A stretch of 31,997 bases of DNA from an uncultured virus (IMG/VR IMGVR_UViG_2061766007_000276) (IMGVR_UViG_2061766007_000276), one strand, 5' to 3'; counted from the stretch's first letter, positions 498 to 30,812 are shown. The notes: a model not told the origin generated them from the sequence alone. Numbers and translations: made by a program.

Positions 498-523
498 GCG
501 GATATTCGAGAAAGGGGCAAGGA

Positions 524-670
524 ATGGAACAAGCCATAGACTGCATCTACTGGGGGATATTCTTCGACGACGAGGAAGTCCTGCCCGGTCTACGCCAAGC
601 CGGGCGATGCTGGAATGGACCTCGTCAGCATGGAAGGTTCGGGTCCACGGGGGAAGGAGCAGGGAGATGA
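524..670 (+). CDS. short hypothetical protein, truncated paralogue of the N-terminus of ORF 2050..3081
   Basis: ATG 524 follows AAGGGG/AAGGA. MEQAIDCIYWGIFFD matches MGNMIDCIYWGLFFD. The stop overlaps the next start (ATGA). Confidence 0.5.
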   Translation: MEQAIDCIYWGIFFDDEEVLPGLRQAGRCWNGPRQHGRFGSTGEGAGR

Positions 671-1095
671 CGAAGCCGAAAAGGGCGTTGGATGTCGCAT
701 ATTTGTGCGACGGTAAGAAGGAGCAATGCGAGGGTAGCGCCGGGTGCTACTGGCAGAACTACGGTGAGTGCAAATGGACGTCGGATATCTCGCATGCCAG
801 GAACTTCATCCCGGTGCACATCGACGACACCATAATGCGGTACGCGGAGAAGGACCGTTTCGACTCCGTATCGTACGAGTACCACCTCGTCTCGGAAACC
901 GAGGATGAGTGCAAGAAGATCGCGACGTCGTTCCACAACAAGCTCGTGGGTAACCTGGACTACGTGGAGAACCGCATAATCGTGAACTGCGATGCGAACG
1001 AGCTGACGTTGACCGTCTTCTACGACTCGTTTACGAAGGTGCGGGTGCAGAACGACAGCCGGGGATTCCCGAAGCTGGTGCTCTGGGACAAGTAA
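667..1095 (+). CDS. Cys-rich hypothetical protein, paralogue of the middle module of ORF 2050..3081
   Basis: ATG 667 follows GGAGCAGGGAG. VAYLCDGKKEQC...GECKWTSDISHARNFIPV...YAEK...YEYHL is shared with ORF 2050. Confidence 0.75.
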   Translation: MTKPKRALDVAYLCDGKKEQCEGSAGCYWQNYGECKWTSDISHARNFIPVHIDDTIMRYAEKDRFDSVSYEYHLVSETEDECKKIATSFHNKLVGNLDYVENRIIVNCDANELTLTVFYDSFTKVRVQNDSRGFPKLVLWDK

Positions 1096-1119
1096 GGATA
1101 TTTCGAGGAAGGAGCGAGA

Positions 1120-1452
1120 ATGGGCAGGGTAGTCAGAGTTCTGCTGGCTATGTCGGTATTGGCCTTCTCCATATTCGTTTCCGCGGGCTGTTCCAAGTCC
1201 GGGGACGAAGCCGACAATAGGTACGGCCCGTTCGCAGAGGAGCCGTGCGAGCAGGTGGTCGTCCTATACGGGGACGATGGCAAGGAGATACGGCGCTGGA
1301 CTGGCTCCATTGCGATATCTTCGAGCAAAGACGGCATGGTCAAGTTCTACTGCGACGACGTGAGGACGATGATCTACGGGGGAACCGTAGTAGTGGTTCA
1401 GGAAAGGAGCGAGGATGGGCCGGATATTCGAGCTGGATCCTCTGGGGCCTGA
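1120..1452 (+). CDS. putative lipoprotein
   Basis: GAAGGAG RBS; basic N-terminus, hydrophobic stretch and lipobox-like VSAGC. Confidence 0.65.
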   Translation: MGRVVRVLLAMSVLAFSIFVSAGCSKSGDEADNRYGPFAEEPCEQVVVLYGDDGKEIRRWTGSIAISSSKDGMVKFYCDDVRTMIYGGTVVVVQERSEDGPDIRAGSSGA

Positions 1453-2046
1453 CGGATCGACTTTGTACGGCAACCCCACGTTCGAGTTCGAGCCTGGGGT
1501 GANNNNNNNNNNNGCGCGGGGAAGACGACGCTGATGGCCGACATCCAGTACGAGCTGAAAGCCCTGGATATTCCCTACGCCAGGCACTATGTCCACGAGG
1601 CGAAGCAGAAGCTGTCCTACAGGGCTTCCGTCGCGGGAGGAAGCGCATTCATGGACTACGCTGGCAGCGTCTTCGCCAGCGAGGGAGAGGGGATATCCAG
1701 GAGGTTCCAGATCCTGCTGCGGGACGTAGGCCATTTCGTCCTATCGGAATGTTCCGGCAAGGAGGAATGCTGGGTGTTCTTCGACTCGCTGGATTCCGGC
1801 CTGTCGGCGGACATGATGCAGGAGATCGTCGAGTTCCTCCAGGACATGGTGGGCGAGANNNNNNNNNNNNNNNNNNNNNNNNNNNNNNNNNNNNTGGCAG
1901 TCAACTCGTTCGAATTCGCCCGCGCCTTCGACTGCCTGGACGTGCAGACGGCGAAGCACCTGCGGTTTGACGATTACGACGACTACGTGTCTTTCGTCAA
2001 GAAGAGCAGGGAACGCAAGGAAAAGCGTTTAGAGGAAAGGAGCTAG
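1415..2046 (+). CDS. ABC/AAA_21-type ATPase, interrupted by N gaps
   Basis: ATG 1415 follows GAAAGGAG. After the gap come Walker A GAGKTTL (1513-1533), signature-like SEGEG and Walker B/D-loop VFFDSLDSGLS. The frame offset across the 11-N gap suggests the gap length is not exact. Confidence 0.7.
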
Positions 2047-2049
2047 ACA

Positions 2050-3081
2050 ATGGGAAACATGATCGATTGCATCTACTGGGGGCTGTTCTTCGACCAGAAG
2101 CTCGGATATTCGCTGGAATGTCCGGTCGAGGACCCGCATGTAACGTTCGGTTTCAAGACCCCGATGCCGGCGGAGCTTCTCGGGAAGAAGGCGACGGTCA
2201 CGGTGATAGGACACGGCTGCGACGGGAGGAACCAGGCCGTCATGGTAGACCTGGACTGCGAGTGCTGGGATGTTTACCAGGGTGCCCAAGTCCCGCACAT
2301 CACGCTCTCGACGTCTAAGGACGGGAAACCCGTGGACAGCGCGGACCTCGACTTCGAGCAATGGGATCCGTACGAGTGGTACGATCTGATCGGGCGGTTC
2401 GGATATTTCGACGGGACGATGGTCCGGTTCAATCCGATGCCTGCACAGATAGTGCAGGATCTGCCGGTCGAGAACTCCGTGGCCTACCTCTGCAACGGGC
2501 AGAAACCGGAATGCAAGGGCCACGCCGACTGCTTCTCGAATCCTGCGTCGGCCGACGATCCCATGGGCCAATGCCGTCGCACCACGGATATTCGCTACGC
2601 CAGGAACTTCGTCCCGGTAGACGGAGATAGGACCAAGTACGCCGAGAAAGAGGGGGAAACGGGCAAGGACATCATCCAATACGAGTACCATCTGGAGACA
2701 GATGCCGCCGAACTCGCGGGGAAAATCGCCAACGAGTTAGACAAGAAACGTTCCAGATCCGAAATCGCGGAATCCCTAGGAATCTCCGAGGCGACAGTAA
2801 GGGCGCTCTCGCGAACAGAGAACGACGAGTCCGATACGATCCCGTTTACGAAGAAGATGGAATCGTTCTACATGGTCGAGGCCGTGGTGAAGTACGAAGA
2901 CGTAGAGGATGTTTTCGAGGCTTTCCGCGTCGACCCTCTGGCCCAGGATCCGATAGCCGAGACGCACGGAAGCGAAGACGGATATTACAGCATAGTCTGC
3001 GGGTTCAACAACCGCAGCGAACGCGATGAGTTTACCGGGAAGATCGATGAGATGTTCCCAGGAAAAGTCAGCTGGCGTTGA
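2050..3081 (+). CDS. mosaic protein: 2H phosphoesterase domain, Cys-rich module, HTH and C-terminal module
   Basis: Two HxT motifs (PHVTF at ~2137; PHITL...GKPVDS at ~2296), HTH-like RSEIAESLGISEATVRAL, GAAAGGAG RBS. Confidence 0.7.
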   Translation: MGNMIDCIYWGLFFDQKLGYSLECPVEDPHVTFGFKTPMPAELLGKKATVTVIGHGCDGRNQAVMVDLDCECWDVYQGAQVPHITLSTSKDGKPVDSADLDFEQWDPYEWYDLIGRFGYFDGTMVRFNPMPAQIVQDLPVENSVAYLCNGQKPECKGHADCFSNPASADDPMGQCRRTTDIRYARNFVPVDGDRTKYAEKEGETGKDIIQYEYHLETDAAELAGKIANELDKKRSRSEIAESLGISEATVRALSRTENDESDTIPFTKKMESFYMVEAVVKYEDVEDVFEAFRVDPLAQDPIAETHGSEDGYYSIVCGFNNRSERDEFTGKIDEMFPGKVSWR

Positions 3082-3111
3082 TCTCAGGATATTCGGAAAG
3101 GAGCGTGACGT

Positions 3112-3516
3112 ATGGGCGAGAAGATGCAAGTAGGAGACAAACTCTACCGGTACCGGTTCGATTTCGCCTCCGGGGATATCTCGATGCACACGTTCGAGGT
3201 CGTGGAGGAGGCATCGTCGTGGAGCATCCAGCAAGTGAGAGCCGAATGCCCCGAAGACCGCAAGCTGACGATCAACTCGGGCCTTTCGTTCGTGCCGGAC
3301 GAGATCATCGGAAAGGTCAGCACGAAAGGCAATTGCAAGTACGTGGTCCTGGCCGAGCAGGACATCGGGAAGGCCCTGCGGATCCTCATGGGATATTTGG
3401 AGCTGCGGTTCGAGAAGGCCAAGGCGAAGTACCTGGAAATGGAGTCCATGGTCCATCTGGTCGAGGAGTGGATGTACTATTCCACGACCTGCCAGGATAT
3501 CGTGGAGGAGGCTTAA
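3112..3516 (+). CDS. hypothetical protein, paralogue family A (copy 1)
   Basis: GAAAGGAG RBS; GDKLYRYRF...KYVVLAEQDIGKALRILMGYLE is shared with 3889 and 4593. Confidence 0.75.
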   Translation: MGEKMQVGDKLYRYRFDFASGDISMHTFEVVEEASSWSIQQVRAECPEDRKLTINSGLSFVPDEIIGKVSTKGNCKYVVLAEQDIGKALRILMGYLELRFEKAKAKYLEMESMVHLVEEWMYYSTTCQDIVEEA

Positions 3517-3741
3517 ATGCTGGCGGAAGACGTGATCCTCACGATCGTCCTGGCGACGGTCCTGCTGGGGATATTCCTCTGGTACGACCTCAAGGTCCGG
3601 AAGGGCAAGGCCAGATGGGAGGATCTGGAAAGGGCGGTGCTTCCGCCGGAGAAAGGGGGCGAAGGACCTGATGGCCGGATATCTCAAAGAGGCGATCGAG
3701 AAGGAGCTGGAGAAGATAGAGTCCTTCGAGATGCAACTTGA
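3517..3741 (+). CDS. small membrane protein
   Basis: GGAGG RBS; single hydrophobic helix VILTIVLATVLLGIFLWY followed by a basic patch. Confidence 0.55.
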   Translation: MLAEDVILTIVLATVLLGIFLWYDLKVRKGKARWEDLERAVLPPEKGGEGPDGRISQRGDREGAGEDRVLRDAT

Positions 3742-3889
3742 TAGGCTTCCAGGTCTCGAGCTGGGCGCGAACGGATATTTCGAGGAGGACCCGTCGAACC
3801 CGACGGAGACGGTTTACGGCTACGTGCCGAGGGAGACCGTGCTGGATCTGCTGGAAAAGCACGGAGGAATAGAGAAGGGACTGTTCTGA
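3671..3889 (+). CDS. hypothetical protein; C-terminus paralogous to 7484..7807
   Basis: VYGYVPRETVLDLLEKHGGI matches IFPWVPAEIVEQLVENHGGI. Confidence 0.65.
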   Translation: MAGYLKEAIEKELEKIESFEMQLDRLPGLELGANGYFEEDPSNPTETVYGYVPRETVLDLLEKHGGIEKGLF

Positions 3890-4248
3890 TGGATATTCAC
3901 GACGATAGGATCTACAAGTACATGTTCGAATCCGAAGGGAAGCTCGTGGTCAAGCGATGCGAGATCGTGGAGGTGGTCGAAGGACGGATATTATTCTTCG
4001 AGGAACGCAGCGGCGACGTGACGAAGAAGAAGGTCATGGACGTCGACGATCTGGAAACCGTCTCTCTCGGAGGAAAATACAAGATGGTCTATCTGGATCA
4101 CGAGGACCTGAGGCACGCCAAGGATATTCTGATCATGTACTACAGGAATAGGATCTCGAACCTCAAGGACCAGATCGCAGACCTCGAGGCCGCAATAACC
4201 AAGGTCGAGGAAACGACGATCGTCCGGGAGGAGACCGGAAATGCCTAG
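3889..4248 (+). CDS. hypothetical protein, paralogue family A (copy 2)
   Basis: DDRIYKYMFESEG...KMVYLDHEDLRHAKDILIMYY; start overlaps the previous stop. Confidence 0.75.
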   Translation: MDIHDDRIYKYMFESEGKLVVKRCEIVEVVEGRILFFEERSGDVTKKKVMDVDDLETVSLGGKYKMVYLDHEDLRHAKDILIMYYRNRISNLKDQIADLEAAITKVEETTIVREETGNA

Positions 4249-4747
4249 GAACCGTTGCGACCGCCTGCGGGAGTTCCGGGAGAACCGGGGCATAAGCCGG
4301 AGGATGTTCGCGGAGCTAACCGGATACGGAGAGGGCACCCTGGCCCGCATCGAGAGGGGGAACGAGGTCTCCGAGGGGACGCAGATTGCCGTCTCCATCC
4401 TGATGGACAAGGTGGACATCCTGGACCTCATGGTCATAACGGACCGCAGGGGATATTACTACAACATAAGCTACCGAGATTTGGAGGACGCCGAGAAGCC
4501 GAGGATATTCCGGAAAGTGCCGTTCGGGCACGACGCCGTGAACATCGGCAGGGAGATCGGGCTCAGCGTCCCGGATAGGAAAGGACTCTTCAATGACGGC
4601 TTTTCGAAAAGGAGATCTGATCTACAAGTACACGCTCCACTCGGAGGGGATCCTCGTGAAGGGCGTCTACCGCATCGAGGCGGTGAACCAGCTATGCACG
4701 GGGAAATATCAGGTCGAAGCCGCTCCGACACAGGGACGGTCCAGTAA
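4241..4747 (+). CDS. XRE/Cro-type helix-turn-helix protein
   Basis: LREFRENRGISRRMFAELTGYGEGTLARIERG is a typical HTH_3 pattern. The C-terminal ~50 codons overlap the next gene. Confidence 0.7.
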   Translation: MPRNRCDRLREFRENRGISRRMFAELTGYGEGTLARIERGNEVSEGTQIAVSILMDKVDILDLMVITDRRGYYYNISYRDLEDAEKPRIFRKVPFGHDAVNIGREIGLSVPDRKGLFNDGFSKRRSDLQVHAPLGGDPREGRLPHRGGEPAMHGEISGRSRSDTGTVQ

Positions 4748-4955
4748 GGTGTACCTGCCCGTGGACGACATCGATTCCAAGATATTCCATTCGTCCAAGA
4801 TCAAGTCGGTGTACCTGTCCGAGGACGATCCCGTGCGGGCATGCGACATGGTGCTCCGATATCTTGAGAACAAGATGAGAGAGCTCCTGTCGAAGCTGGA
4901 CTCCTGCTCCAACATGTACGACGCCGTCAAGAAGGAGCGTGGTAAGATTGGTTAA
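4593..4955 (+). CDS. hypothetical protein, paralogue family A (copy 3)
   Basis: GAAAGGA RBS; GDLIYKYTLHSEG...KSVYLSEDDPVRACDMVLRYLE. Confidence 0.75.
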   Translation: MTAFRKGDLIYKYTLHSEGILVKGVYRIEAVNQLCTGKYQVEAAPTQGRSSKVYLPVDDIDSKIFHSSKIKSVYLSEDDPVRACDMVLRYLENKMRELLSKLDSCSNMYDAVKKERGKIG

Positions 4956-5286
4956 CTGCCCGAATTGCGGCGCGCCGATTCAGGGCCGGATCTGCGAGTA
5001 CTGCGGGACCCCCGACCCATCCGCGTTCCGGATGCTCCACGGGAAGCCTGTTCGGATATCCTACGAGATGGAGGACGGGCATAGGTACACGTTCGAGCTC
5101 CTGGTCGAGTCGATAGGGATGGAGTACGAGTGCTCCACGCAAGACCTCTACTCTTTCGGCCAGGATATTCCTTACCTGACGTTCACTAGTTTCGCGAAGA
5201 CGAACGTTTCGATCCAGGGAAGCATCGTGCCGATGGAGATGGGAGGCGGAAGGCAAGCGATGATGCTGGAGGAGGTTCCGAGATGA
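4939..5286 (+). CDS. zinc-ribbon protein
   Basis: NCPNCGAP...CEYCGT (two CxxC motifs); GAAGGAG RBS before GTG. Confidence 0.7.
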   Translation: MVRLVNCPNCGAPIQGRICEYCGTPDPSAFRMLHGKPVRISYEMEDGHRYTFELLVESIGMEYECSTQDLYSFGQDIPYLTFTSFAKTNVSIQGSIVPMEMGGGRQAMMLEEVPR

Positions 5287-5501
5287 GCAAGGGATATTTG
5301 ACGGGGATGCTGGTCCTTCTCTTCCTGCTCTCGACCTTTCTGGGCCTGAACGGCGCGTTCCTGGTCATGGACCTGGTCTGGGGACATCCAGGCACGATGG
5401 AGATCGTCGGAAGGGTCATGGTGGTCGTCAGTCTGATCGCGGCCTGCACCGGCATATGCAGGACCATACTGAACGGATATTCCGAAAGGAGCTTGAAATG
5501 A
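5283..5501 (+). CDS. small two-helix membrane protein
   Basis: Two hydrophobic segments; GGAGG RBS; ATGA overlaps at both ends. Confidence 0.65.
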   Translation: MSKGYLTGMLVLLFLLSTFLGLNGAFLVMDLVWGHPGTMEIVGRVMVVVSLIAACTGICRTILNGYSERSLK

Positions 5502-6229
5502 AGCATGGGAGGATTCCGATCGCGATGATCTCGGCCGTGTTGGCGTTAGCGCTGACGACGCCGGCCTTCGCGGAAGAGCTTACGGCAGGAACGCAGGATA
5601 TTCCGGCAGACTCCACGGCGCTGACCGCTGAGCAGGAAGCGCAGATGGAGCAGGCTAGGCTGCTCGAGGAACAGGCCAGGAAGAAGGCCGAGTTGCTGGC
5701 CAAATGGAAGGCCAAGGCGAAAACCAGGTACAAGACGTGCAGGAAGCTCTACGTGAAGATCCAGAAAGCTTCCGTATATTTGAAGCTGTCCGACGCGCAG
5801 AAGAGCTACAGCAAGCTGTGCAAGCACGTAAAGTACCTCAAGAAGCTCGCGAAGAAGGACAAGTCCCTCAAGAAGTGGTACAAGAAGGCCTACGTGCTCA
5901 AGAAGGAGTGCAAGTCCGTCATCAAGACCATCAAGAAGGACTTGGCTACTCAGAGGGCCAATGCGGCGTCGCTCAAGTACAACGGCGAGGTATATTCCGG
6001 AGGATGGCGCTACACGTGGTACAGCCAGAACGTCCTTCCTGGAGGAGGATTGAAGATACCGGGGCGGCATGTCGGCAACGGGGGGCTGATCATGGACAAG
6101 TGGAACAACGTCGTGGTCGCATCCGAGGACCTCTCCAAGGGAACGGAGCTCGACACCCCGTACGGACGCGCCAAGGTCTACGACAGCGGATGCCCTGACG
6201 GGACGATCGACGTCTATACGAATTGGTGA
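5498..6229 (+). CDS. secreted protein with a Lys-rich coiled region and a C-terminal 3D (MltA-like) cell-wall-hydrolase-like domain
   Basis: Signal peptide ending AFA; C-terminal VVVASEDLSKGT...G...VYDSG...IDVY carries the three-Asp pattern of 3D domains; GAAAGGAG RBS. Confidence 0.65.
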   Translation: MKHGRIPIAMISAVLALALTTPAFAEELTAGTQDIPADSTALTAEQEAQMEQARLLEEQARKKAELLAKWKAKAKTRYKTCRKLYVKIQKASVYLKLSDAQKSYSKLCKHVKYLKKLAKKDKSLKKWYKKAYVLKKECKSVIKTIKKDLATQRANAASLKYNGEVYSGGWRYTWYSQNVLPGGGLKIPGRHVGNGGLIMDKWNNVVVASEDLSKGTELDTPYGRAKVYDSGCPDGTIDVYTNW

Positions 6230-6275
6230 GGAGATGTGGCGCTATGAGGAAGTACGCCAACGGAACGGAGGAAAC

Positions 6276-7273
6276 ATGATCGAGGAAGCACGACTGCTGG
6301 CTGACGAGCTCATGAAAAGCCCGGTTCCGGATCCCATCGACGCCCTCGGAAAGCTCGGATACGGATATTCCGCAGTCAAGAGGTTCAAAGACCTGAACGC
6401 TTCGATGCAACGCCCGCATATCTGGGACATGCCGGGGATAAGGGAGATGTCCGAGGATCCCGTCCTGCAGATGGACGTAGTCGAGGAAGGAGAGTACCAT
6501 GACGCGGTGATGTCCGCGCTGGCGTCGAGTCATCCGTCGGACTATCTGATATGCAACGAGATGCTCGTAGAGCGGATGTACGACCTCCTGTCCAGCGCCG
6601 GAGTCGACAAGGAAATCGGGGTCCCATCGGATATCTTCGTGTCCGGCACCATCCCGATACCGGACATGGTCATGTCGTTCGAGGGCGACGTGGACACCAA
6701 GTTCCGGATCCTAACCGGGAACCGCGGGGGATATTTCGTGTTCGACGATTGCGCAGGGACGGAGAGCTTCTCCGTGGCGTTGACGTTCGGCCCTCCAGAG
6801 GACGTCGGGGAGGACGTGGGGGTGTTCTTCATGGATATCTCCACCTCGGTGTCCACGCACCCCGAAGTTCTCAAAAGATATTTGGACAGGTACCACGCCC
6901 TCGAAATGTACCTCCTGTTCGACCAGGTGCTAAAGTTGTGGTACGCCTTCCAGATCCTGCTGCTCAACCCGGCCACCAAGCCGGTGCTCATGAAGAGGTC
7001 CGGCAAGGAGAAGTTGAACGGAGCATGCATGACGTCGAGGAAGACCGGGAAGCGCAAGGCGTGCTACGTAAAGCGCCATCGCGTGGAAACGGATATCTTC
7101 GATCGGGAGACGTCTACGGACGGCGTCGACCGGAAGACGCTGAGCTGGNNNNNNNNNNNNNNNNNNNNNACTACCAGTCTGGCAAGAAGAGCTTCGTCAA
7201 GGGATATTGGAAGGGACCCCTCAGGCATCTGGAAAGGAACCTGGACGACGGGCGGGAGAGGAGGCTGGCATGA
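6276..7273 (+). CDS. conserved phage protein, interrupted by an N gap
   Basis: GGAGG RBS before ATG 6276. After the gap the natural continuation is in another frame (W...YQSGKKSFVKGYWKG), resembling the common phage 'VRGHWRxYKSGK..W...YWKG' ending. The stop overlaps the next ATG. Confidence 0.6.
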
Positions 7274-7434
7274 TACTCGAATGCCCGCAATGCGGTTTTA
7301 CCGGCGTGTTCACGTCCTACCCGGTTTACTTGAGCGATGGCCGGGCGGTTTTCCTGTGTCCAAAATGCTACGAAGAGCACTGCTACAAGGTCAGGAAGCT
7401 ATACGCGCAGGACGAAGACGGCTACGGACGATAG
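7270..7434 (+). CDS. small zinc-ribbon protein
   Basis: GGAGG RBS; CPQC...CPKC. Confidence 0.6.
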   Translation: MILECPQCGFTGVFTSYPVYLSDGRAVFLCPKCYEEHCYKVRKLYAQDEDGYGR

Positions 7435-7483
7435 AAAGCCAGGGTGAAAGGCGCCTTGGAGAGACGCTACCGTAGAAAGGAGA

Positions 7484-7807: not shown

Positions 7808-7820
7808 GAAGGAGGTTGGC

Positions 7821-8055: not shown

Positions 8056-8069
8056 AAAGGAGAAGCGAC

Positions 8070-8872: not shown

Positions 8873-8883
8873 GAAGGAGGATC

Positions 8884-24700: not shown

Positions 24701-25558
24701 CTGGCGATAAAGCATGGAGATCACGACTCGGCCAGGAAGATGTTGGACGGCAAGCTCGCTAAGTACATCGACGATCCGGATATCTCGGATAAGAAGCTGG
24801 CCTATGCCCTTAAGATCATCATCAACTCGGTTTACGGGTGGACGAGCGCGAGATTCGACTGCGAGTTCAAGCATCCGAGGAACGTCGACAACATAGTGGC
24901 GAAGCGAGGAGCTCTGTTCATGATAGACCTCAAACATGAGGTGCAGCGTAAGGGGTTCACCGTGGCTCACATCAAGACGGACTCCATAAAGATACCAAAC
25001 GCCACCCCGGAGATCATATCCTTCGTGATGGACTACGGCAAGGAGTACGGATACACGTTCGAGCACGAGGACACGTACGACAAATTCTGCCTAGTGAACA
25101 ACTCCGTGTATATTTGCAAGAGCAGGGAGCACAACTGCTGGGAGCCGACAGGTGCCCAATTCGCGGAACCGTATGTGTTCAAATCCTTGTTCAGTCACGA
25201 GGATCTGGAGTTCAGGGATTTCTGCCAGACGAAGACGGTGACCGTCGGCGATATTTACCTCGACATGAACGAGACGTTAGGGGAGGATGACCACAACCTG
25301 AAGTTCGTCGGAAGGGCCGGATTGTTCACCCCGGTCGTCCCAGGTTCAGGAGGAGGGATATTGTACAGGGTCCAGGATGACAAGCTGTACGCCGTAACCG
25401 GAACCAAAGGATATCGGTGGCTCGAGTCCGAGACAGTCGAAATGCTGGGAAAGCAGGACGAAGTGGACGTTTCGTACTACGAGAGACTGTGCGAAGAGGC
25501 AATAGAGGACATAGGCAAGTACGTGGACTACGAGAAGCTCGTGGAAGAAAAGGAGTGA
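21746..25558 (+). CDS. fused SF3 helicase / primase / 3'-5' exonuclease / family-B DNA polymerase (~1270 aa)
   Basis: Walker A GSAGTGKS (~22313); prim-pol motifs IVIDFD and ELSKSGKGVHLHY; ExoI FYDVEV, ExoII GFNNRRYD, ExoIII YCINDV; PolB motifs LDIASMHP, KIIINSVYG, HIKTDS. Start placed at ATG 21746 after the N gap. Confidence 0.88.
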   Translation: MLDFVRITTSTKVTKRKDGASDVTVRISPEFIVRSSEDLMIKGSAFYAVWDPDIGMWSKDPGTVCRIVDEGIDEAAKRLPDGMKNAVLEKMYLRTYSTKKWTEFLGYCASLPDNYHELDTKLTFENDEVSKEDYVSKRLGYSLKPGSIDAWEELIGTLYDPIEKQKVEWSIGCIVSGDSIRVQKFVVLYGSAGTGKSTLLNIIQMLFDGYYNTFEAKALASFNNSFALEMFRDNPLVSIQHDGDLSHIEDNTKLNSIVSHEEMVVNEKRKAQYTSRFNTFIYVGTNKPVTITDAKSGILRRLIDVRPSGKMVDFQRYQTLMAQVRFELGAIAYHCRKVYRTLGISAYDKYVPTEMMGATNDFYNFVIDTMDILSVPGGVTLANAWEEYKKWCEMAKVKYPKSKRSFKEELKNYYSEFKERGRDSSGNQGYSVYYGFKKDKFRYSTEQEELKAAIESVDMLKLDSEVSLFDVDCAGYPAQYANSDGTPSMRWSRVKTTLSDISTTELHYVKLPENHIVIDFDLKDDDGDKSLEMNLKAAAKWPKTYAELSKSGKGVHLHYRYEGDTSKLSNIYSEGIEVKVFKGNGALRRKLTRCNKEEIAILQSGLPLKKGGKKVIDFEGLANEKALRTMIERNLKKEIHPGTKPSVDFIYKILEDAYSSGMHYDVTDMRPAIMAFANNSTNHSYYCIKLMSKAHFQSEDPSDGVDWADPDDIVFYDVEVFPNLFVVVWKNEDSEQCVKMINPSPSDIEKLCRFKLVGFNNRRYDNHILYARMVGMNNQELYGISKRIIGGGKESRNGYFNEAWNLSYTDIYDYSSKKQSLKKWEIELGIHHQELGLPWDEPVDESLWEKVAEYCINDVRATEAVFKATYDDFVARCLLADLSGLSVNHTTRSHGTKIIFGNDKNPQEKLVYTDLSEIFPGYEFDNGKSSYRGEDPGEGGYVYAEPGYYENVALLDIASMHPTSLIELNYLGPYTERFEDIVKARLAIKHGDHDSARKMLDGKLAKYIDDPDISDKKLAYALKIIINSVYGWTSARFDCEFKHPRNVDNIVAKRGALFMIDLKHEVQRKGFTVAHIKTDSIKIPNATPEIISFVMDYGKEYGYTFEHEDTYDKFCLVNNSVYICKSREHNCWEPTGAQFAEPYVFKSLFSHEDLEFRDFCQTKTVTVGDIYLDMNETLGEDDHNLKFVGRAGLFTPVVPGSGGGILYRVQDDKLYAVTGTKGYRWLESETVEMLGKQDEVDVSYYERLCEEAIEDIGKYVDYEKLVEEKE

Positions 25559-25560
25559 AA

Positions 25561-26055
25561 ATGCCTAAGCAGAGAATAGAGGAAAGACCGATCTTCGAGA
25601 ATTGCCGGATCATATTCCGGAACTTTGCCGGAGAGCAGTCGCAGTACAACAGAGCAGGAGACAGGAACTTCTGCGTAGTTATCGACGATGAGGAGACGGC
25701 GTCGAGGCTTATAAAGGACGGATGGAACATAAAGCATCTTCCGCCCTTGGACGAAGGCGGCGAAGAGACCGCATATTTGCCAGTAGCCGTTTCGTTCCAG
25801 AACGTACCCCCGACCATAATAATGCTGTCTTCCAGAGGGCGCACGCATCTCGACGAGTCCACCATAGATATTCTGGACTACGCTGAGATAGAAACGGTAG
25901 ATTTGATCGTGAACCCGTACAATTGGGAAGTCAACGGTAAATCTGGTGTCAAGGCGTACGTGAAATCGATGTACGTCACGATACGCGAGGATGCATTGGC
26001 GAAGAAATACGCAACCTTCGACACCAACGACCCGTCAGACGACGTTCCGTTCTAA
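25561..26055 (+). CDS. single-stranded DNA-binding protein
   Basis: AAGGAG RBS; IIFRNF.G...YN..G.RNF...VKAY; acidic C-terminal DDVPF tail; lies between polymerase and helicase. Confidence 0.75.
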   Translation: MPKQRIEERPIFENCRIIFRNFAGEQSQYNRAGDRNFCVVIDDEETASRLIKDGWNIKHLPPLDEGGEETAYLPVAVSFQNVPPTIIMLSSRGRTHLDESTIDILDYAEIETVDLIVNPYNWEVNGKSGVKAYVKSMYVTIREDALAKKYATFDTNDPSDDVPF

Positions 26056-26058
26056 ACC

Positions 26059-27273
26059 ATGGGTGTAGGCCTTTACAAGCACCAAGTCGAGGCCGTGGAG
26101 AAGTTGAGGTCCGGCTCCGTCCTTTGCGGCGGGGTCGGATCCGGCAAATCCAGAACAGCGTTAGCCTTCTTCGTGAAGAAGGTGTGCTGCGGAAAGATAC
26201 CTCCTCCGAGAAGCACTGAATCCGTAATGGTAAAATATGAGGTGCCTCTCTACATCATAACCACGGCCGGAAAAAGGGACCGACTGGATTGGGAGAAGGA
26301 ATGCGCTCCTTTCTGCATCGCCACAGAAGGTCCTAGTCTAGTCCCATTGAAAGTGGACTCATGGAACAACATAGAGAAGTACGTCGATATCGAGAACGCG
26401 TTTTTCATTTTCGATGAGCAGCGGATAGTAGGCACTGGAAAATGGGCTAAGACTTTCGTGAAGATAGCCAAGAAGAACAGGTGGGTTCTTCTCAGTGCAA
26501 CGCCAGGAGACACATGGTTTGATTACTGGGCGATATTCGTAGCGAACGGATACTACAAAAACGTTACAGATTTCAGAAGGCAACACGTCGTTTACAGGAG
26601 AATGGCCAAATTCCCTCAGATAGAGAGATACGTGGACACTTGGAAGCTGGAAAAGTTAAGACATGATATTCTAGTGAACATGCCGTTCGAGAGAGAAGCG
26701 GTAAGGCATCACGAGTGGGTCAAAGTCGGATACGAATCGGATATCTACAACCTAGTTGCGAAGAAGAGATGGAACGTTTACGAGGAACGCCCTCTTGAGA
26801 ACATATCTGAAACTTGCTACACCATGCGAAAAGTAGTCAATTCCGATCCGAGAAGGTGCGTGGCCGTAATAGATATTCTTTCGAAAAGGCCTAGCGCAAT
26901 AATATTCTATAATTACAATTACGAATTGGCGATGCTTCGTGAGTGCATGGAAGAGAACGGAATAGAGTACTCCGAGTGGAACGGTCACAAGCATCAGGAT
27001 CTTCCGGATGGAAGGAAATGGGCTTACCTTGTCCAGTACACCGCTGGAGCAGAGGGATGGAATTGCATCACGACGGACACGGTCATATTCTTCTCCCAGA
27101 ATTACAGCTATAAGGTTATGGAGCAAGCTTGCGGGAGAATAGATCGTATGAACACACCCTACACGGATTTGTACTATTACCATATTTTCAGCGATGCTGG
27201 AATAGACAAAGCGATAAGAAATTGCATCAAGAAGAAGCGCGACTTCAACGAAAGAGCTTTTATCACCCACTAA
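26059..27273 (+). CDS. superfamily 2 DNA helicase
   Basis: Q motif LYKHQ, Walker A GSGKS, FDEQR, LSATP, EGWN and QACGRIDR. Confidence 0.85.
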   Translation: MGVGLYKHQVEAVEKLRSGSVLCGGVGSGKSRTALAFFVKKVCCGKIPPPRSTESVMVKYEVPLYIITTAGKRDRLDWEKECAPFCIATEGPSLVPLKVDSWNNIEKYVDIENAFFIFDEQRIVGTGKWAKTFVKIAKKNRWVLLSATPGDTWFDYWAIFVANGYYKNVTDFRRQHVVYRRMAKFPQIERYVDTWKLEKLRHDILVNMPFEREAVRHHEWVKVGYESDIYNLVAKKRWNVYEERPLENISETCYTMRKVVNSDPRRCVAVIDILSKRPSAIIFYNYNYELAMLRECMEENGIEYSEWNGHKHQDLPDGRKWAYLVQYTAGAEGWNCITTDTVIFFSQNYSYKVMEQACGRIDRMNTPYTDLYYYHIFSDAGIDKAIRNCIKKKRDFNERAFITH

Positions 27274-27279
27274 TTTTTT

Positions 27280-27307
27280 TCGCGATAAAATCACCCCCTT
27301 TAATGAG
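27280..27307 (+). promoter_or_regulatory. TCGCGA-W5-YC element, copy 5
   Basis: TCGCGATAAAATCACCCCCTTTAATGAG in the intergenic gap upstream of the nuclease/RNAP genes. Confidence 0.55.
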
Positions 27308-27338
27308 AGGGATAGGGTAACTCCCTCTCATTTTTTTA
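27303..27338 (+). terminator. rho-independent terminator-like hairpin
   Basis: Perfect 10-bp stem ATGAGAGGGA / TCCCTCTCAT followed by a T run. Confidence 0.7.
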
Positions 27339-27353
27339 TTTCCAGGAGGGGTT

Positions 27354-27671
27354 ATGAGAGAAGGAGAGTATCAAAGTCTTCTGAAGAAGCGAATACAGGA
27401 AGCTATTCCGGGATGCATGGTCTTGAAAAACGACTCTTCTTGGTTGCAAGGAGTCCCGGATCTGACAGTCTTGTATGAGGACAAGTGGGCATCGTTAGAA
27501 GTAAAACGCTCGAAGAACGAAGCGCATCAGCCGAATCAGGATTACTACGTCGAAACCATGTCTAACATGAGCTACTCGGCGTTCATATATCCTGAAAACG
27601 AAAAGGAGATACTAGATGAACTTCAACGAGCATTGGGGCATCGAGGGGAAGCATGCCTTTCTGAGTCCTAG
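27354..27671 (+). CDS. VRR-NUC domain nuclease (Holliday junction resolvase-like)
   Basis: E...Q...GVPDL...LEVK...QPNQ is the VRR-NUC PD-(D/E)XK pattern; AGGAGG RBS. Confidence 0.8.
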   Translation: MREGEYQSLLKKRIQEAIPGCMVLKNDSSWLQGVPDLTVLYEDKWASLEVKRSKNEAHQPNQDYYVETMSNMSYSAFIYPENEKEILDELQRALGHRGEACLSES

Positions 27672-28170
27672 CCAATACCACTGGCTCAACTACGACACCG
27701 AGAAGTTGGAAGAGAGATATTTCAACAGCAAGGCGGCCGAGCGTGGAACAAAACTTCACGAATATGCTGCCATGGCTATAAGTTTGGGGAGAAAGCAACC
27801 TAAGACAAAAGATACAATCAACATGTTCGTCAACGATGCTATCGGATATTCCATGGTGCCGGAGCAACCTCTTTACTATTCAGAGAATTGTTTCGGAACC
27901 GCCGACGCGATATCTTTCAACAAAAACCTCTTGCGAATACACGATCTCAAAACCGGAGTCACGCAAGCATCGATGCTTCAGTTGGAGATATATGCAGCAT
28001 TGTTCTGTTTGGAGTATTCCAAGGATCCGAAGCAAATAGACATATCCCTAAGGATATACCAGTCCAACGAGAAAGACGAGCTAATCCCCGAAAGTGAAGA
28101 AATAGCCAGAATAATGGATCAGATAGTGGAGTACGATATTCTGATAGAGAAGTTCAAGGAGAGCATCTGA
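27616..28170 (+). CDS. PD-(D/E)XK (Cas4/RecB-like, DUF2800-like) exonuclease
   Basis: HAFLSPS...A.RGT.LH...EQ...FGTADAI...IHDLKTG...QL.IYA; AAGGAG RBS. Confidence 0.8.
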   Translation: MNFNEHWGIEGKHAFLSPSQYHWLNYDTEKLEERYFNSKAAERGTKLHEYAAMAISLGRKQPKTKDTINMFVNDAIGYSMVPEQPLYYSENCFGTADAISFNKNLLRIHDLKTGVTQASMLQLEIYAALFCLEYSKDPKQIDISLRIYQSNEKDELIPESEEIARIMDQIVEYDILIEKFKESI

Positions 28171-30812
28171 TGGAAGACGTCTTGGTCCATTATGGAACGC
28201 CCAGGCATTCTGGGAGATATCCTTGGGGATCCGGAGAAAATCCCTACCAACATGGAGGAGATTTCTACAACAGCGTCAACAAGCTGAGAAAAGACGGCAT
28301 GAACGACACCGATATTGCTAAAGTGTTCGACATGTCCACCACAGAATTCCGGAAGCAATACAGCATCGCCAAAGATGAGGTGAAGACGGAGAGAAGAGCC
28401 GCCAACGCTCAGCTGATGGAGCAAGGCTTGAACCGATCGGAAAGAGCCAGACGGCTAGACGTCAGCGAATCGACCCTTAGATCTTGGGAAAACGAAGATT
28501 CCATAAAGAGGGCCGAGGTTACCAACGCTACAGTAGACGTGTTGAAAAAGAACGTTGACGAAAAGAAATATATCGACGTTGGAGAAGGCGTTGCCAGTTC
28601 TCTAGGGATCACAGAGAACCGATTAGGGACAGCAGTTCAATCGTTAGTCAACGAAGGATATGAAGTACACAACATCTACGTGGATCAAGTGGCAAATCCT
28701 AAGCAGAAAACAACCGTTCAAGTTTTGTGCAAACCTGGAACGACCAAGAACGAATTATACGAGCATTCTAGTGAAATCGGTTTGATAAACGAGAAGTTCG
28801 ACGATGCCCACGGATTGACGACTAGAGGAATGAAGCCTCCTCAGTCGATATCCTCCAAAAAGGTGCAAGTCGTGTACGCAGAGGATGGAGGAACTTCCAA
28901 AGATGGCCTTATAGAGCTTAGACGTGGAGCGAAAGGCTTAGATCTTGGAAATGCCAATTACGCTCAGGTTAGAATCGCAGTGGATGGAACCCACTATCTC
29001 AAAGGCATGGCCGTATATTCCGACGACTTACCAAAGGGTGTCGACATAAGGTTCAACACCAACAAATCGAACAGCGGCTCCAAACTTGACGCGATGAAGG
29101 AAATGAAAAAGGATCCTAACAATCCGTTTGGAAGCACCATAAAGGACCAAAAGGGATATTTGAACATAGTGCAGGAACAAGGCCAATGGCAAGAATGGTC
29201 TAAAACGCTATCGTCTCAGTTCCTATCCAAGCAATCGGTTGTTTTAGCAAAACAACAACTTTCATTTTCCAAACAGCAAAGGGAGGCAGAGCTCAAAGAA
29301 ATAATGAGCTTGTCCAATCCTACGGTAAAAAAGCACGAATTGGAAGAATTCGCTGAGAAATGCGACACCGCCGCAGTTCATTTGAAAGCGGCTTCCATGC
29401 CTGGGCAATCGAACAGCGTCATATTACCAATAAACTCGTTAAAGCCGACAGAAGTATACGCTCCGAACTATCCTAACGGAACAGAGGTCGTTCTTGTAAG
29501 GCATCCTCACGGAGGAACTTTCGAACTTCCTCAGCTGAAAGTTAACAACAGGAACGCCGAAGCCAAAAAAGTCATAGGCGTGTCAAACGACGCCATAGGA
29601 ATCCATCATTCCGTAGCCCAGCAATTATCTGGGGCGGACTTCGATGGCGACACGGTCGTCGTCATACCGAACAATTCTAAGAAGGTCAAGACCAGATCCC
29701 CATTGAAGCAGCTTCAGGAGTTCGATCCGAAAATATACAAGTTTCCGGAAGGAACGCCAGACTCCAAAATCATAAAGCCAAATATGAAGCAGCGAGAAAT
29801 GGGCGTGGCTTCCAATCTCATCACAGACATGACATTGCAAGGCGCTCCAGACGAAGATTTAATAAGAGCCGTCAAGTATTCCATGGTCGTTATCGATTCC
29901 GAGAAACACAAACTCGATTACAAGCAAGCTCGAGAAGACTACAACATAAAAGAGCTGAAGCGAAAGTATCAGCAAAAGCCAAGCGAAGACGGAAAAGAGC
30001 GTTTTGGAGGAGCTTCCACTCTCATATCCAGAGCCAAATCCGAAGTTAGGGTTCCGGAACGTCGCCAAGTAGTGAAAATAGATCCGAACACAGGCGAAAA
30101 GATATTCTATCCTACGAACAGAGGATACACCAACAAAAAGGGCGTTTTCGTACCTTCTACAGACAAGTCGTCGCAGATGCGAGAAGCCAAAGATGCTATG
30201 AAGTTGGTGTCTAGCGCCAACAATGGCAGCGGAACAGCCATGGAAAGAGTGTACGCTCAATACGCAAACAGTATGAAAGCTATGGCGAATCAGGCTAGAA
30301 AAGCCTCTGTTCATGTGGAGGAGCCATCTAAGAACCCGGAAATGGCCCGAAAATATGAAAACGAAGTTGCGTCCTTAAAAGCCAAACTCGTCTCAGCAAA
30401 GGCTTGGTCGCCTAAAGAGAGAAATGCCCAACTTTATGCGAATTGGGCGTATAAACAAGCTCTTGCGGAAAATCCGGATATGACCGACGACGATAAGAAA
30501 AAAGTTCGTCAGCAAGCCCTTGTTACTGGACGAGCTAGACTCGGAGGATCTAAGCCTACCGTAACGTTCACAGACAAAGAGTGGGAAGCCGTTCAAGCGA
30601 ACGCTATATCCAAAACCACTTTAAAAGAGCTTCTTAGATATGCAGACTCCGACAAAGTAAAGGAAAGAGCTCTTCCAAAGGCTAAAACAGTAATGACGAC
30701 CTCTAAAATAGCAATAGCCAGATCTCGTCTAAGCGCAGGCTATTCGTATCGGGAAGTTGCCGAGATGCTAGGCGTTTCCGTGAGCACGTTGCAATCGGCA
30801 ATGAACAAATAA
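28170..30812 (+). CDS. putative single-subunit two-barrel (double-psi beta-barrel) RNA polymerase with N- and C-terminal HTH domains
   Basis: GADFDGD (aa 488-494, nt 29631-29651), upstream RHP (aa 444-446), KDGLIEL and QVRI...LKGMA motifs; HTH-like ERARRLDVSESTLRSW and YREVAEMLGVSVSTL; N-terminal LVHYGTPRHSGRYPWGSG leader. Confidence 0.75.
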   Translation: MEDVLVHYGTPRHSGRYPWGSGENPYQHGGDFYNSVNKLRKDGMNDTDIAKVFDMSTTEFRKQYSIAKDEVKTERRAANAQLMEQGLNRSERARRLDVSESTLRSWENEDSIKRAEVTNATVDVLKKNVDEKKYIDVGEGVASSLGITENRLGTAVQSLVNEGYEVHNIYVDQVANPKQKTTVQVLCKPGTTKNELYEHSSEIGLINEKFDDAHGLTTRGMKPPQSISSKKVQVVYAEDGGTSKDGLIELRRGAKGLDLGNANYAQVRIAVDGTHYLKGMAVYSDDLPKGVDIRFNTNKSNSGSKLDAMKEMKKDPNNPFGSTIKDQKGYLNIVQEQGQWQEWSKTLSSQFLSKQSVVLAKQQLSFSKQQREAELKEIMSLSNPTVKKHELEEFAEKCDTAAVHLKAASMPGQSNSVILPINSLKPTEVYAPNYPNGTEVVLVRHPHGGTFELPQLKVNNRNAEAKKVIGVSNDAIGIHHSVAQQLSGADFDGDTVVVIPNNSKKVKTRSPLKQLQEFDPKIYKFPEGTPDSKIIKPNMKQREMGVASNLITDMTLQGAPDEDLIRAVKYSMVVIDSEKHKLDYKQAREDYNIKELKRKYQQKPSEDGKERFGGASTLISRAKSEVRVPERRQVVKIDPNTGEKIFYPTNRGYTNKKGVFVPSTDKSSQMREAKDAMKLVSSANNGSGTAMERVYAQYANSMKAMANQARKASVHVEEPSKNPEMARKYENEVASLKAKLVSAKAWSPKERNAQLYANWAYKQALAENPDMTDDDKKKVRQQALVTGRARLGGSKPTVTFTDKEWEAVQANAISKTTLKELLRYADSDKVKERALPKAKTVMTTSKIAIARSRLSAGYSYREVAEMLGVSVSTLQSAMNK

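What the first reader, a model, noticed from the sequence alone, without database searches (positions are those of the whole stretch)
500..29160. Heavily over-represented, strand-specific heptamer GGATATT in all reading frames
Seen: about 60 copies of GGATATT on the + strand by hand count (e.g. 500, 555, 1096, 1422, 2104, 2401, 3087, 3391, 3891, 4451, 4503, 5475, 12381, 22061), plus many GGATATC and GATATTC variants. I noticed no AATATCC on the + strand. Base composition predicts only one or two copies. It occurs intergenically and in all three frames (G-Y at 2401, D-I at 3891, R-I-F at 4503), so it is not a codon or peptide effect. Density falls from about 22 in the first 6 kb to about 4 in the last 8 kb. 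Inference: a polar signal selected on top of coding sequence. It could be a binding site for a phage DNA- or RNA-binding protein, a processivity or antitermination mark for the phage RNAP, a KOPS/Chi-like translocation cue, or a DNA-modification target.
Basis: partly seen in the sequence, partly recalled or inferred. Interest (0 to 1): 0.85.

Follow-up and report, generated by a model that had tools for sequence, protein, structure and literature searches.

The report
One-strand ATATT word in phages
A short DNA word (GGATATT, core ATATT) is written about every 350 bases on only one strand of this rumen phage and of related phages of very different bacteria, far more often than coding needs explain, which points to an undescribed directional signal for the phage's own RNA- or DNA-making machinery.

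Summary
GGATATT occurs 60 times on the + strand and never on the - strand. The core GATATT is 87:1. Sites fall equally in all three frames. A shuffle that keeps every protein and each gene's codon usage gives 16.2±3.5 GATATT against 80 observed.

The window is the right arm of a siphophage from the Actinobacteria/Firmicutes supercluster. These phages encode an RdRP-like two-barrel RNA polymerase with HTH domains and a helicase-PolB fusion.

The same core, ATATT followed by C or T, with flanks that differ by lineage, is equally polar in relatives. Examples are ReqiPoco6 168:7, Rima 107:3 and Untouchable 149:9. Unrelated phages of the same hosts lack it.

Sites avoid each other within about 50 bp, ignore gene starts, keep their polarity in non-coding DNA, turn over while density is held, and are avoided on the other strand.

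This is not a codon effect, a host Chi mimic or a classical promoter. Relatives carry a separate long promoter-like element.

The function is unresolved. My best guess (0.3) is distributed co-directional entry sites for transcription. Lagging-strand priming is close behind (0.2). I found nothing in print on it.

The parts
332..30106 (+). Array of 87 GATATT sites, of which 60 carry the 5' G (GGATATT; first at 500-506, last at 29154-29160). The wider core ATATT occurs 116 times on + and 13 times on -.
   Evidence: Searches give the positions. The GGATATT starts are 500, 555, 1096, 1422, 1566, 2104, 2401, 2586, 2980, 3087, 3391, 3569, 3773, 3891, 3986, 4122, 4451, 4503, 5163, 5292, 5475, 5596, 6363, 6729, 7202, 8257, 8492, 9845, 10326, 10559, 10687, 10850, 11868, 12003, 12381, 12946, 13973, 15469, 15766, 16204, 16354, 17004, 17349, 17803, 17902, 18569, 18823, 19695, 19989, 20057, 20548, 22061, 22163, 22370, 22635, 23030, 24584, 25356, 27844, 29154.
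28170..30812 (+). RdRP-like two-barrel RNA polymerase with N- and C-terminal HTH domains. It is a candidate reader.
   Evidence: phrog_4291 E=0. Pfam gives RdRP at 9.5e-05 (below its cutoff), HTH_23, and Sigma70_r4_2 at the C-terminus. 250 phage records hold a homologue at 36-49% identity. The ReqiPoco6 record notes that its homologue resembles a structural protein of Lactococcus phage 1706.
21464..25558 (+). D5_N-like domain + SF3 helicase (DUF5906) + family B DNA polymerase fusion. Bases 21491-21727 are masked. No primase catalytic domain was seen. It is a candidate reader.
   Evidence: phrog_4210 E=0. DUF5906. Weak PolB hits in relatives. The N-terminal 175 aa of the G001 copy score 0.96 against D5_N clusters.
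26059..27273 (+). SF2 helicase of the conserved right-end module.
   Evidence: phrog_62 1.1e-58 and Helicase_C. Present in 10 of 10 genomes compared.
27354..27671 (+). Small endonuclease, annotated as VRR-Nuc in relatives.
   Evidence: phrog_93 5e-15. Annotations in Zeina and HotFries.
27616..28170 (+). Cas4/RecB-like exonuclease.
   Evidence: phrog_3953 1e-76 and DUF2800.
16638..17315 (+). Conserved protein of unknown function (phrog_4079), present in all 10 genomes compared.
   Evidence: The family has 6,605 representatives at E<=0.001. The model has pLDDT 74.5. No clear fold match.
4241..4747 (+). Xre-type HTH protein in the early region. No relative was found in the other genomes compared.
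   Evidence: HTH_31 2.9e-08. No tblastn match in 7 relatives.

Best explanation
GGATATT is this phage's version of a family-wide polar DNA word. The core is ATATT, followed by C or T and rarely preceded by A, with flanks that differ by lineage. Selection keeps it at about 2-5 copies per kb on the gene-sense strand and removes it from the other strand.

I think it most likely acts as a distributed, co-directional entry or initiation site for RNA synthesis. On this reading it is a minimal, easily melted, -10-like element. The sites would feed rightward transcription through the whole genome and, after the ends join, into the structural genes.

Shown: the word, its polarity, its selection at DNA level, its spacing, and its restriction to this phage lineage. 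Inferred: that a polymerase starts or engages there, and which polymerase it is.
For: 1. Polarity equals gene direction in every genome examined, and it also holds in non-coding DNA. There, ATATT is 158 on + and 25 on - over 10 genomes, including window 10:0, Rima 17:0 and Untouchable 19:0.

2. The antisense orientation is under-represented against synonymous shuffles in 16 of 19 genomes or loci, with z <= -2.5 in 8 of them. This is expected if antisense starts are harmful.

3. There is a footprint-like exclusion zone. In the window, the smallest GATATT gap is 52 bp, and 0 of 2,000 random placements reach that. ATATT gaps under 40 bp number 0 in Untouchable (20.6 expected), 0 in ReqiPoco6 (21.5), 0 in Rima (9.3) and 3 in the window (12.5).

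4. There is a mild excess in non-coding DNA and just upstream of start codons. Non-coding counts are FP_oengus 33 against 10.8 expected, Rima 17 against 7.1, and Untouchable 20 against 10.2. The bin at -40 to -20 holds 59 sites against about 35 per bin over 640 genes.

5. The word is confined to the lineage that encodes this polymerase. Unrelated phages of the same hosts have ATATT 4:1 (ReqiPine5) and 2:2 (phiC31).

6. Density is low where rightward flux would already be high: at and beyond the RNAP gene, and in the structural genes that follow it on the joined genome.

7. From memory, not checked here: GATATT and CATATT are the -10 hexamers listed for SPO1 gp33/34 and for B. subtilis sigma-E. 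Very short promoters are also known for non-canonical phage RNAPs.
Against: Sites are not placed relative to genes. In the window, 8 of 87 are intergenic against 6.5 expected, the within-gene deciles are flat, and there are 87 sites for about 50 ORFs.

Relatives have a separate long promoter-like element before their early genes, so ATATT is not the polymerase's main promoter.

Both HTH recognition helices of the RNAP are conserved alike in phages with and without the word.

Circum has the same RNAP at 49% identity but shows no enrichment (z = 0.9). L016 and L050 also show none.

In four minus-strand genes of relatives the word does not flip to the gene's own strand (10 observed against 11.6 expected). 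It tends instead to stay on the genome + strand (20 against 15.6, P = 0.06).

No RNA data were available.
Confidence: 0.3

Rival explanations
1. Replication signal on the lagging-strand or displaced strand. ATATT plus a 3' pyrimidine would be a template site where RNA primers begin (primer pppAAUAU..., with the 3' C/T acting as a cryptic base). Alternatively it could be where the helicase-PolB replisome is loaded, so that all forks run one way.
For: Sites are evenly distributed, independent of genes, and kept by density rather than position. Between Untouchable and Avazak, 55 of 104 aligned sites are retained, against 31% of other pentamers. 17 of the 49 lost sites have a new site within 60 bp, and the totals are 149 and 132.

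The polarity never switches along any genome. The word stays on the genome + strand inside minus-strand genes.

The replisome protein is D5_N + SF3 helicase + PolB, with no primase domain found in it or in the 33 window proteins scanned. Primers must therefore come from somewhere else.

The sequence fits the general primase rule of starting with a purine opposite a template pyrimidine next to an uncopied base. That rule is recalled knowledge.
Against: The recalled T7 primase sites are not strand-biased in T7: GGGTC 39:55, TGGTC 79:62, GTGTC 43:42. There is therefore no precedent for enrichment.

Known primase sites are trinucleotides. This model gives no reason for antisense avoidance, for the sparse structural arm, or for the empty RNAP end. 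No primase was identified. Relatives with the same replisome lack the word.
Confidence: 0.2
2. Chi-like or 'self' mark. The word would tame a helicase-nuclease, either the phage's own SF2 helicase, VRR-Nuc and Cas4-like exonuclease module or a host enzyme. Phage DNA would be spared or recombined while word-poor host DNA is degraded.
For: It is a polar, dense, over-represented short word with the wrong orientation avoided, like Chi.

A helicase plus two nucleases are conserved in 9-10 of 10 genomes.

ATATT is rare in the high-GC hosts' own phages: 4:1 and 2:2 in 50 and 41 kb. It could therefore tell phage DNA from host DNA. Low-GC members use a longer word: G001 has TTATATT 70:2 and TGATATT 57:2, and the full form T[GT]ATATTT has no copy on the - strand of the 60 kb held.
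Against: It is not a host Chi, because the same core is used across phyla and is absent from unrelated phages of the same hosts.

The right end, whose + strand ends 3', is exactly where the word is missing in Rima, Untouchable, ReqiPoco6, HotFries and G003. The nuclease module is also present in phages without the word. The module is not of the RecBCD/AddAB type.
Confidence: 0.12
3. RNA-level signal. AUAUU in the mRNA would be the target of a ribonuclease or an RNA-binding protein, as GGAG is for T4 RegB (recalled).
For: All genes are on the + strand, so every site is in mRNA. Avoiding the complementary word could keep the site single-stranded.
Against: The polarity is as strong in non-coding DNA. 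The word does not move to the sense strand of minus-strand genes. This model gives no reason for a 50-bp exclusion zone.
Confidence: 0.1
4. Cue for a DNA translocation step, either packaging by terminase or genome entry into the cell. Genome entry could be transcription-driven, as in T7 and N4 (recalled).
For: There is strict single polarity, regular spacing, and a density profile along the virion map that is low in the left arm, high in the middle and right, and empty at the extreme right. The RNAP homologue of phage 1706 is noted as a structural protein.
Against: There is no precedent for such cues in packaging. If the terminase-proximal left end is packaged first and leaves last, which is the usual rule (recalled), rightward transcription could not pull the DNA in.
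Confidence: 0.05
5. Target of a strand-specific DNA modification or nicking enzyme.
For: The word is asymmetric. Single-strand nicks at fixed words are known in T5 and some Pseudomonas phages (recalled).
Against: A target need not be enriched 15-20 fold or evenly spaced. No methyltransferase or nickase family was found among the 33 window proteins scanned.
Confidence: 0.04
6. No function: a by-product of codon or dipeptide usage, gene duplication or mutation bias.
For: A few copies lie in paralogous segments. Purine-rich sense strands create many skewed words.
Against: Shuffles that keep proteins and codon usage give 16.2±3.5 against 80 observed. Frames are equal at 25, 26 and 28. Non-coding DNA is 10:0. 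Circum and P162, run through the same pipeline, show no word with z above about 6, and their top words are frame-bound.
Confidence: 0.02

Closest known systems
Chi, KOPS/SRS and other skewed 'architecture-imparting' oligomers of bacterial chromosomes
   Same: It is a short word, over-represented, strongly co-oriented and read by a directional machine, with the wrong orientation selected against.
   Different: Density is 10-40 times higher: one per 250-370 bp, against one per 4-12 kb (the latter recalled). There is no polarity switch. There is a 50-bp exclusion zone. The word is AT-rich rather than G-rich. It is specific to a phage lineage and is shared across host phyla.
Short promoters of phage-directed transcription (T4 late TATAAATA, SPO1 late -10 GATATT, phiKZ late TATG; all recalled)
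   Same: It is an AT-rich 4-8 base element that works without a -35 box, is co-oriented with the genes, and belongs to phages that redirect or replace the host polymerase.
   Different: Those elements sit upstream of genes and number tens per genome. Here there are 87-170 sites, mostly inside genes in all frames, with a flat profile around starts. Relatives also have a separate long promoter-like element.
Primase recognition sites (T7 gp4 5'-GTC-3' family; recalled)
   Same: It is a strand-read template word, with a pyrimidine start and an uncopied 3' neighbour, needed at intervals along one strand.
   Different: Known primase sites are 3-5 bases long and are not strand-biased in T7. No primase was found here.
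One-orientation EcoP15I sites of phage T7 (recalled; CTGCTG is 36:0)
   Same: A short asymmetric word occurs in a single orientation along a phage whose genes all point one way.
   Different: That case is explained by avoidance of inverted site pairs. Here the word itself is enriched 5-fold over the synonymous null and more than 15-fold over composition.
   Same: A dispersed, strand-specific word through a phage genome, which that agent read as replication-linked.
   Different: It is a different phage group, with a 10-base word every 1.4 kb. It is an unchecked AI note and I have not tested it.

Membership tests
Chi (host RecBCD/AddAB hotspot) mimic | The word is that of the host's own helicase-nuclease, so it differs between host groups and is shared by other phages and DNA of that host | tested here: not met
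   The same ATATT core occurs in phages of Rhodococcus, Gordonia, Streptomyces and Faecalibacterium and in oral and rumen contigs. Unrelated phages of R. equi and Streptomyces have 4:1 and 2:2.
Chi (host RecBCD/AddAB hotspot) mimic | Over-represented and co-oriented with replication in the host chromosome | not testable with these tools
   No genome is held for the window, and its host is unknown. The window's DNA was found only in bovine gut metagenome runs.
KOPS/SRS translocase guide | An FtsK/SpoIIIE-type translocase that reads the word, with polarity switching at a terminus | tested here: not met
   No such family was found among the 33 window proteins in PHROGs or Pfam. No polarity switch appears in any of the genomes profiled.
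Classical phage or host promoter | Lies in intergenic DNA at a set distance upstream of genes or operons, roughly one per transcription unit | tested here: not met
   8 of 87 sites are intergenic or at a boundary, against 6.5 expected from the 7.5% of non-coding DNA. The profile over 640 genes is flat apart from a 1.7-fold bump at -40 to -20.
Classical phage or host promoter | Co-oriented with the genes it serves | tested here: met
   All called genes and 87 of 88 GATATT sites are on +.
Classical phage or host promoter | RNA 5' ends start at a fixed distance downstream | not testable with these tools
   No RNA holder is listed, and the runs are kept as contigs only.
Primase recognition site | A primase encoded by, or recruited to, the replisome | tested here: inconclusive
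   No primase catalytic domain was found in the 33 window proteins or in the helicase-PolB of FP_oengus and Rima. The N-terminus is D5_N-like. Unknown proteins remain.
Primase recognition site | Lies on the lagging-strand template | not testable with these tools
   The replication direction is unknown. GC skew is positive throughout and is confounded with gene direction.
Type III restriction avoidance (single orientation only) | Orientation bias without enrichment of the word | tested here: not met
   GATATT is 80 in genes against 16.2±3.5 under the synonymous shuffle.

The most novel reading that the evidence does not exclude
The word is a genome-wide 'polymerase entry code' of a kind not yet described. 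A sigma-less, possibly virion-carried, two-barrel RNA polymerase, or the primase-less D5_N-helicase-PolB replisome that it primes, would start RNA at ATATT about every 250 bp and in one direction only. The whole genome would then be transcribed, replicated or even drawn into the cell co-directionally.
Probability: 0.3. Interest if true: 0.9.

Novelty: new variant of a known kind. Interest (0 to 1): 0.8.

Why it matters
If it is real as a signal, this is one of the densest and most strictly polar sequence codes seen in any genome. It overrides codon and even amino-acid choice. It is conserved across a phage supercluster that spans Actinobacteria, Firmicutes and gut, oral and rumen hosts.

It gives a direct experimental handle on two open questions for these phages. 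One is what their unusual RdRP-like polymerase does beyond early promoters. The other is how a helicase-PolB replisome without a recognisable primase is primed.

It also gives a simple sequence marker for recognising and orienting such phages in metagenomes. Finally, it is a caution for recoding or codon-optimising their genes.

Tried and rejected
- **Close relatives.** Megablast of 12 kb against 50,697 phage records gave no match. No whole genome is held. All 34 viral-contig loci and the 2 genome-contig loci are 47% identical or less at the RNAP, so I could not make a site-by-site comparison for the window itself.
- **Sequencing runs.** No RNA holder is listed, and all runs are contigs. Read laying printed 40 of 1,091 variant places, so I could not test conservation of the window's own sites. 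No places where molecules begin or end were reported, which contigs cannot show in any case.
- **Gene presence or absence.** No family is present in all word-bearing genomes and absent from both Circum and P162.
- **RNAP HTH helices against flank preference.** No pattern.
- **Helical periodicity of spacing.** None is consistent across 5 genomes.
- **T7 primase sites as a precedent.** They are not biased.
- **Folds.** The single-sequence model of window 20785-21363 has pLDDT 38 and is unusable. The phrog_4079 family model has pLDDT 74.5. Foldseek found no match at E<=0.001 of 121 listed. The best VIA Z is 3.8 over 48,161 chains. The fold is therefore undecided.
- **ESM Atlas.** For that family the best score is 0.79, which gives no lead.
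- **PDB sequence searches.** Nothing useful. NCBIfam also gave nothing useful.
- **Repeat search in the window.** No long repeated promoter was found.
- **Literature.** Searches, and passages read, found no description of the ATATT word or of the long promoter-like element. The paper on ReqiPoco6 (Summer et al. 2011) is not held and may bear on this. bioRxiv supplements are closed.

Full report
**1. The observation.**

GGATATT occurs 60 times, all on the + strand, and never on the - strand. 100 dinucleotide-preserving shuffles gave a mean of 3.45 for both strands together and never more than 10. The mononucleotide expectation is 1.1 per strand.

K-mer tables show that the conserved core is shorter: GATATT 87:1 and ATATT 116:13. 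Flanks are preferred rather than fixed. G precedes GATATT in 60 of 87 sites, C follows in 46 of 87, and the next base is C or G in 68 of 87. GGATATC is a weaker variant at 35:16.

**2. Not a coding effect.**

About 50 ORFs, all on +, cover 92.5% of the window. The 87 GATATT sites fall in frames 25, 26 and 28, with 8 intergenic or at gene boundaries.

I ran 200 shuffles that permute synonymous codons within each gene. These keep every protein, and hence every dipeptide, and each gene's codon usage. They gave 16.2±3.5 GATATT (max 25) against 80 observed in genes, and 7.7±2.6 GGATATT (max 14) against 58. The reverse complement AATATC is 1 against 4.7±1.9.

The shuffle mean already exceeds the compositional expectation of 3.7-6.0. 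So the word has shaped amino-acid choice as well: D-I, G-Y and x-I-F/L.

In the 2,408 non-coding bases, ATATT is 10:0. At most three copies are explained by paralogous gene segments.

**3. What the window is.**

There is no near-identical phage record. PHROGs and Pfam identify four components at the right end:

- a 1,364-aa helicase/DNA polymerase (21464-25558)
- an SF2 helicase
- a small endonuclease and a Cas4-like exonuclease
- an 880-aa RdRP-like two-barrel RNA polymerase with HTH domains at both ends (28170-30812)

The polymerase has homologues at 36-49% identity in 250 phage records. These are phages of Arthrobacter, Gordonia, Streptomyces, Rhodococcus, Lactococcus and Faecalibacterium, plus oral contigs. 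This is the 'supercluster' of bioRxiv 10.1101/842583, of which I read passages only. Those passages discuss the putative RNAP but no DNA word.

The window corresponds to the early-plus-replication arm, which ends with the RNAP gene. Its DNA is found in bovine gut metagenome runs.

**4. The word is a family trait.**

In relatives the same core is polar:

| Genome or locus | Count (+:-) |
|---|---|
| ReqiPoco6 | ATATT 168:7 |
| Untouchable | ATATT 149:9 |
| Avazak | ATATT 132:2 |
| Rima | ATATT 107:3 |
| G003 (a complete 58-kb viral contig) | ATATT 69:6 |
| contig89 | ATATT 44:5 |
| HotFries | ATATT 25:2 |
| FP_oengus | GATATT 62:7 (TGATATTT 33:0) |
| G001 | ATATT 330:93 (TTATATT 70:2, TGATATT 57:2; no T[GT]ATATTT on -) |

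The flanks differ by lineage. The core is rarely preceded by A and is usually followed by C or T.

I applied synonymous shuffles to 19 genomes or loci:

- Sense-strand z is 7.8-25.5 in 10 of them.
- It is 3.3-6.0 in 5: FP_oengus, Zeina, L033, Tatanka and P162.
- It is below 2 in 4: Circum, L024, L016 and L050. The last two may be the same phage.
- The antisense word is under-represented in 16 of 19, with z <= -2.5 in 8.

A blind k-mer scan with the same null finds no comparable word in Circum or P162. Unrelated phages of the same hosts lack the word: ReqiPine5 4:1 in 50 kb and phiC31 2:2 in 41 kb. The word therefore belongs to this phage lineage and not to the hosts.

**5. Anatomy of the array.**

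Sites repel each other at short range.

- In the window, the smallest GATATT gap is 52 bp, reached by 0 of 2,000 random placements. The coefficient of variation (CV) is 0.80 against 0.98 for random placement.
- ATATT gaps under 40 bp number 0 in Untouchable (20.6 expected), 0 in ReqiPoco6 (21.5) and 0 in Rima (9.3).
- The commonest gap is 100-200 bp, and there is no helical periodicity.

Sites ignore gene structure. Within-gene deciles are flat, and the profile around 640 start codons is flat apart from a 1.7-fold bump at -40 to -20. Non-coding DNA is about 2-fold enriched in several relatives but not in the window.

Density varies along genomes. It is low in the left structural arm of Untouchable, HotFries, FP_oengus and G001, high in the middle, and nil or nearly so over the RNAP gene. 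Rima is uniform.

Between Untouchable and Avazak (76% identity over 36.8 kb), 55 of 104 aligned sites are fully kept, against 31% of other pentamers. 17 of the 49 lost sites have a new site within 60 bp, and both genomes keep similar totals. Selection therefore holds density and polarity, and only partly holds position.

**6. Tests bearing on mechanism.**

(a) Relatives carry a different, long element in intergenic DNA before their early genes. It reads roughly CGCA-N5-TACAC-N3-CCTATAAT-GAGACCCCTA-GAAAGGA. There are about 6-13 copies in Untouchable, Avazak, Rima, ReqiPoco6, G003 and P162, and fewer in D_HF5_2C, Tatanka, Zeina and Circum. None were found in the window, FP_oengus, G001, HotFries or contig89. 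It is conserved across host phyla, so it is the better candidate for the RNAP's main promoter. ATATT is something else.

(b) Both HTH recognition helices of the RNAP are conserved in phages with and without the word.

(c) No gene family tracks the word.

(d) I examined four real or probable minus-strand genes of relatives: the G001 tyrosine integrase and serine recombinase, confirmed by Pfam, the FP_oengus integrase, and one FP_oengus ORF. The word is not enriched on the gene's own strand (10 against 11.6 expected). It tends to stay on the genome + strand (20 against 15.6, P = 0.06; integrase alone 10 against 6.0, P = 0.004).

(e) The helicase-polymerase is D5_N-like + SF3 helicase + PolB, with no primase catalytic domain detected.

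(f) The recalled T7 primase sites show no strand bias in T7.

**7. Reading.**

The extreme polarity, its persistence in non-coding DNA, and the antisense avoidance all require a reader that works on one strand or moves in one direction.

A host Chi mimic, a translocase guide of the KOPS type, a classical promoter, restriction avoidance and a coding artefact each fail a defining test (see Membership tests).

Two readings remain close.

- **Transcription entry.** Distributed co-directional entry sites for transcription fit the antisense avoidance, the footprint-like exclusion zone, the slight upstream excess, the low density where rightward flux would already be high, and the restriction to phages with this polymerase. 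This reading fits poorly with the indifference to gene starts and with the separate long promoter.
- **Lagging-strand priming or replisome loading.** This fits the even, position-free, density-selected layout, the unswitched polarity and the missing primase. It does not explain the antisense avoidance or the regional pattern, and it has no precedent in T7.

I put 0.3 on the first and 0.2 on the second. Smaller weights go to a phage-specific Chi-like mark (0.12), an RNA-level target (0.1), a translocation or entry cue (0.05), a modification or nick target (0.04) and no function (0.02). The remainder is something I have not thought of.

**8. Known or new.**

My literature searches and the passages I read contain nothing on this word. 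The 2011 paper on ReqiPoco6 could not be read.

For comparison, the P23-45 paper (passages) reports an AT-rich motif upstream of 14 of 23 transcription start sites for a virion two-barrel RNAP. That is promoter numbers in the tens, not hundreds.

It is unchecked, and I use it only as a parallel.

I class the finding as a new variant of the known kind 'polar over-represented oligomer'. There is a fair chance that the mechanism is new.

Noticed in passing
L007 (Untouchable) 20197-27779 and 36191; L006 (Rima) 19738-27911; L058 (ReqiPoco6) 12876-22224; L063 (Avazak) 18853-28641; L004/L055 (P162) record 23032-46525: A long element is conserved in intergenic DNA just before early genes. It reads roughly CGCA-N5-TACAC-N3-CCTATAAT-GAGACCCCTA-GAAAGGA-ATG, and the P162 variant is TTTTACATACCCTATAATGAAAGGATATAGGTA. 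It is shared by phages of Actinobacteria and Lactococcus, so it is probably the promoter of the phage's own RNA polymerase. It was not found in the window, FP_oengus, G001, HotFries or contig89. No paper holds these strings.
   Followed up: partly
window 21464-25558; L047 8080-12081: The replicative protein is a D5_N-like + SF3 helicase + family B polymerase fusion. No primase catalytic domain was detected, and no primase was found elsewhere among the 33 window proteins scanned.
   Followed up: partly
L058 46741-49461 (ReqiPoco6 record note): The record says that the RNAP homologue resembles a 'structural protein' of Lactococcus phage 1706. The polymerase may therefore be carried in the virion. 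I did not check this against the 1706 paper.
   Followed up: no
window 20000-31997: GC falls from about 56-58% in the first 20 kb to 45-48% over the conserved replication and RNAP module. GC skew fades towards the right end.
   Followed up: no
window 17312-17764: A 150-aa protein has a weak match to the Acb2/Tad1 hairpin domain of anti-defence sponges. E is 1.1e-4 and the score is 22.8 bits against a cutoff of 27.
   Followed up: no
window 523-568 / 2049-2094; 782-815 / 2585-2618; 3904-3948 / 4614-4658: Segments 78-79% identical link neighbouring small early genes. This suggests paralogous families in the left part of the window.
   Followed up: no
window, whole: The palindrome GATATC is also enriched: 46 in genes against 19.4±3.9 under the synonymous shuffle. 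GGATATC is more common than GATATCC (35:16). This suggests that C can partly replace the last T of the word.
   Followed up: partly
L058 45014 and 45189 (ReqiPoco6): Two copies of CTTAATACCCTATA each face an inverted TATAGGGTATTAAG. They lie between the ligase and HNH genes and could be a terminator or an origin-like structure.
   Followed up: no
L062 (T7): CTGCTG is 36:0 and GCTGGTG is 21:0 in T7. The first matches the recalled single-orientation EcoP15I sites. I did not examine the second, which is Chi minus one base.
   Followed up: no
L047-L049 (G001) 56226-57176 and 59028-59945: This word-rich 61-kb gut viral contig carries a tyrosine integrase and part of a serine recombinase on the minus strand, so it is probably temperate.
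   Followed up: partly
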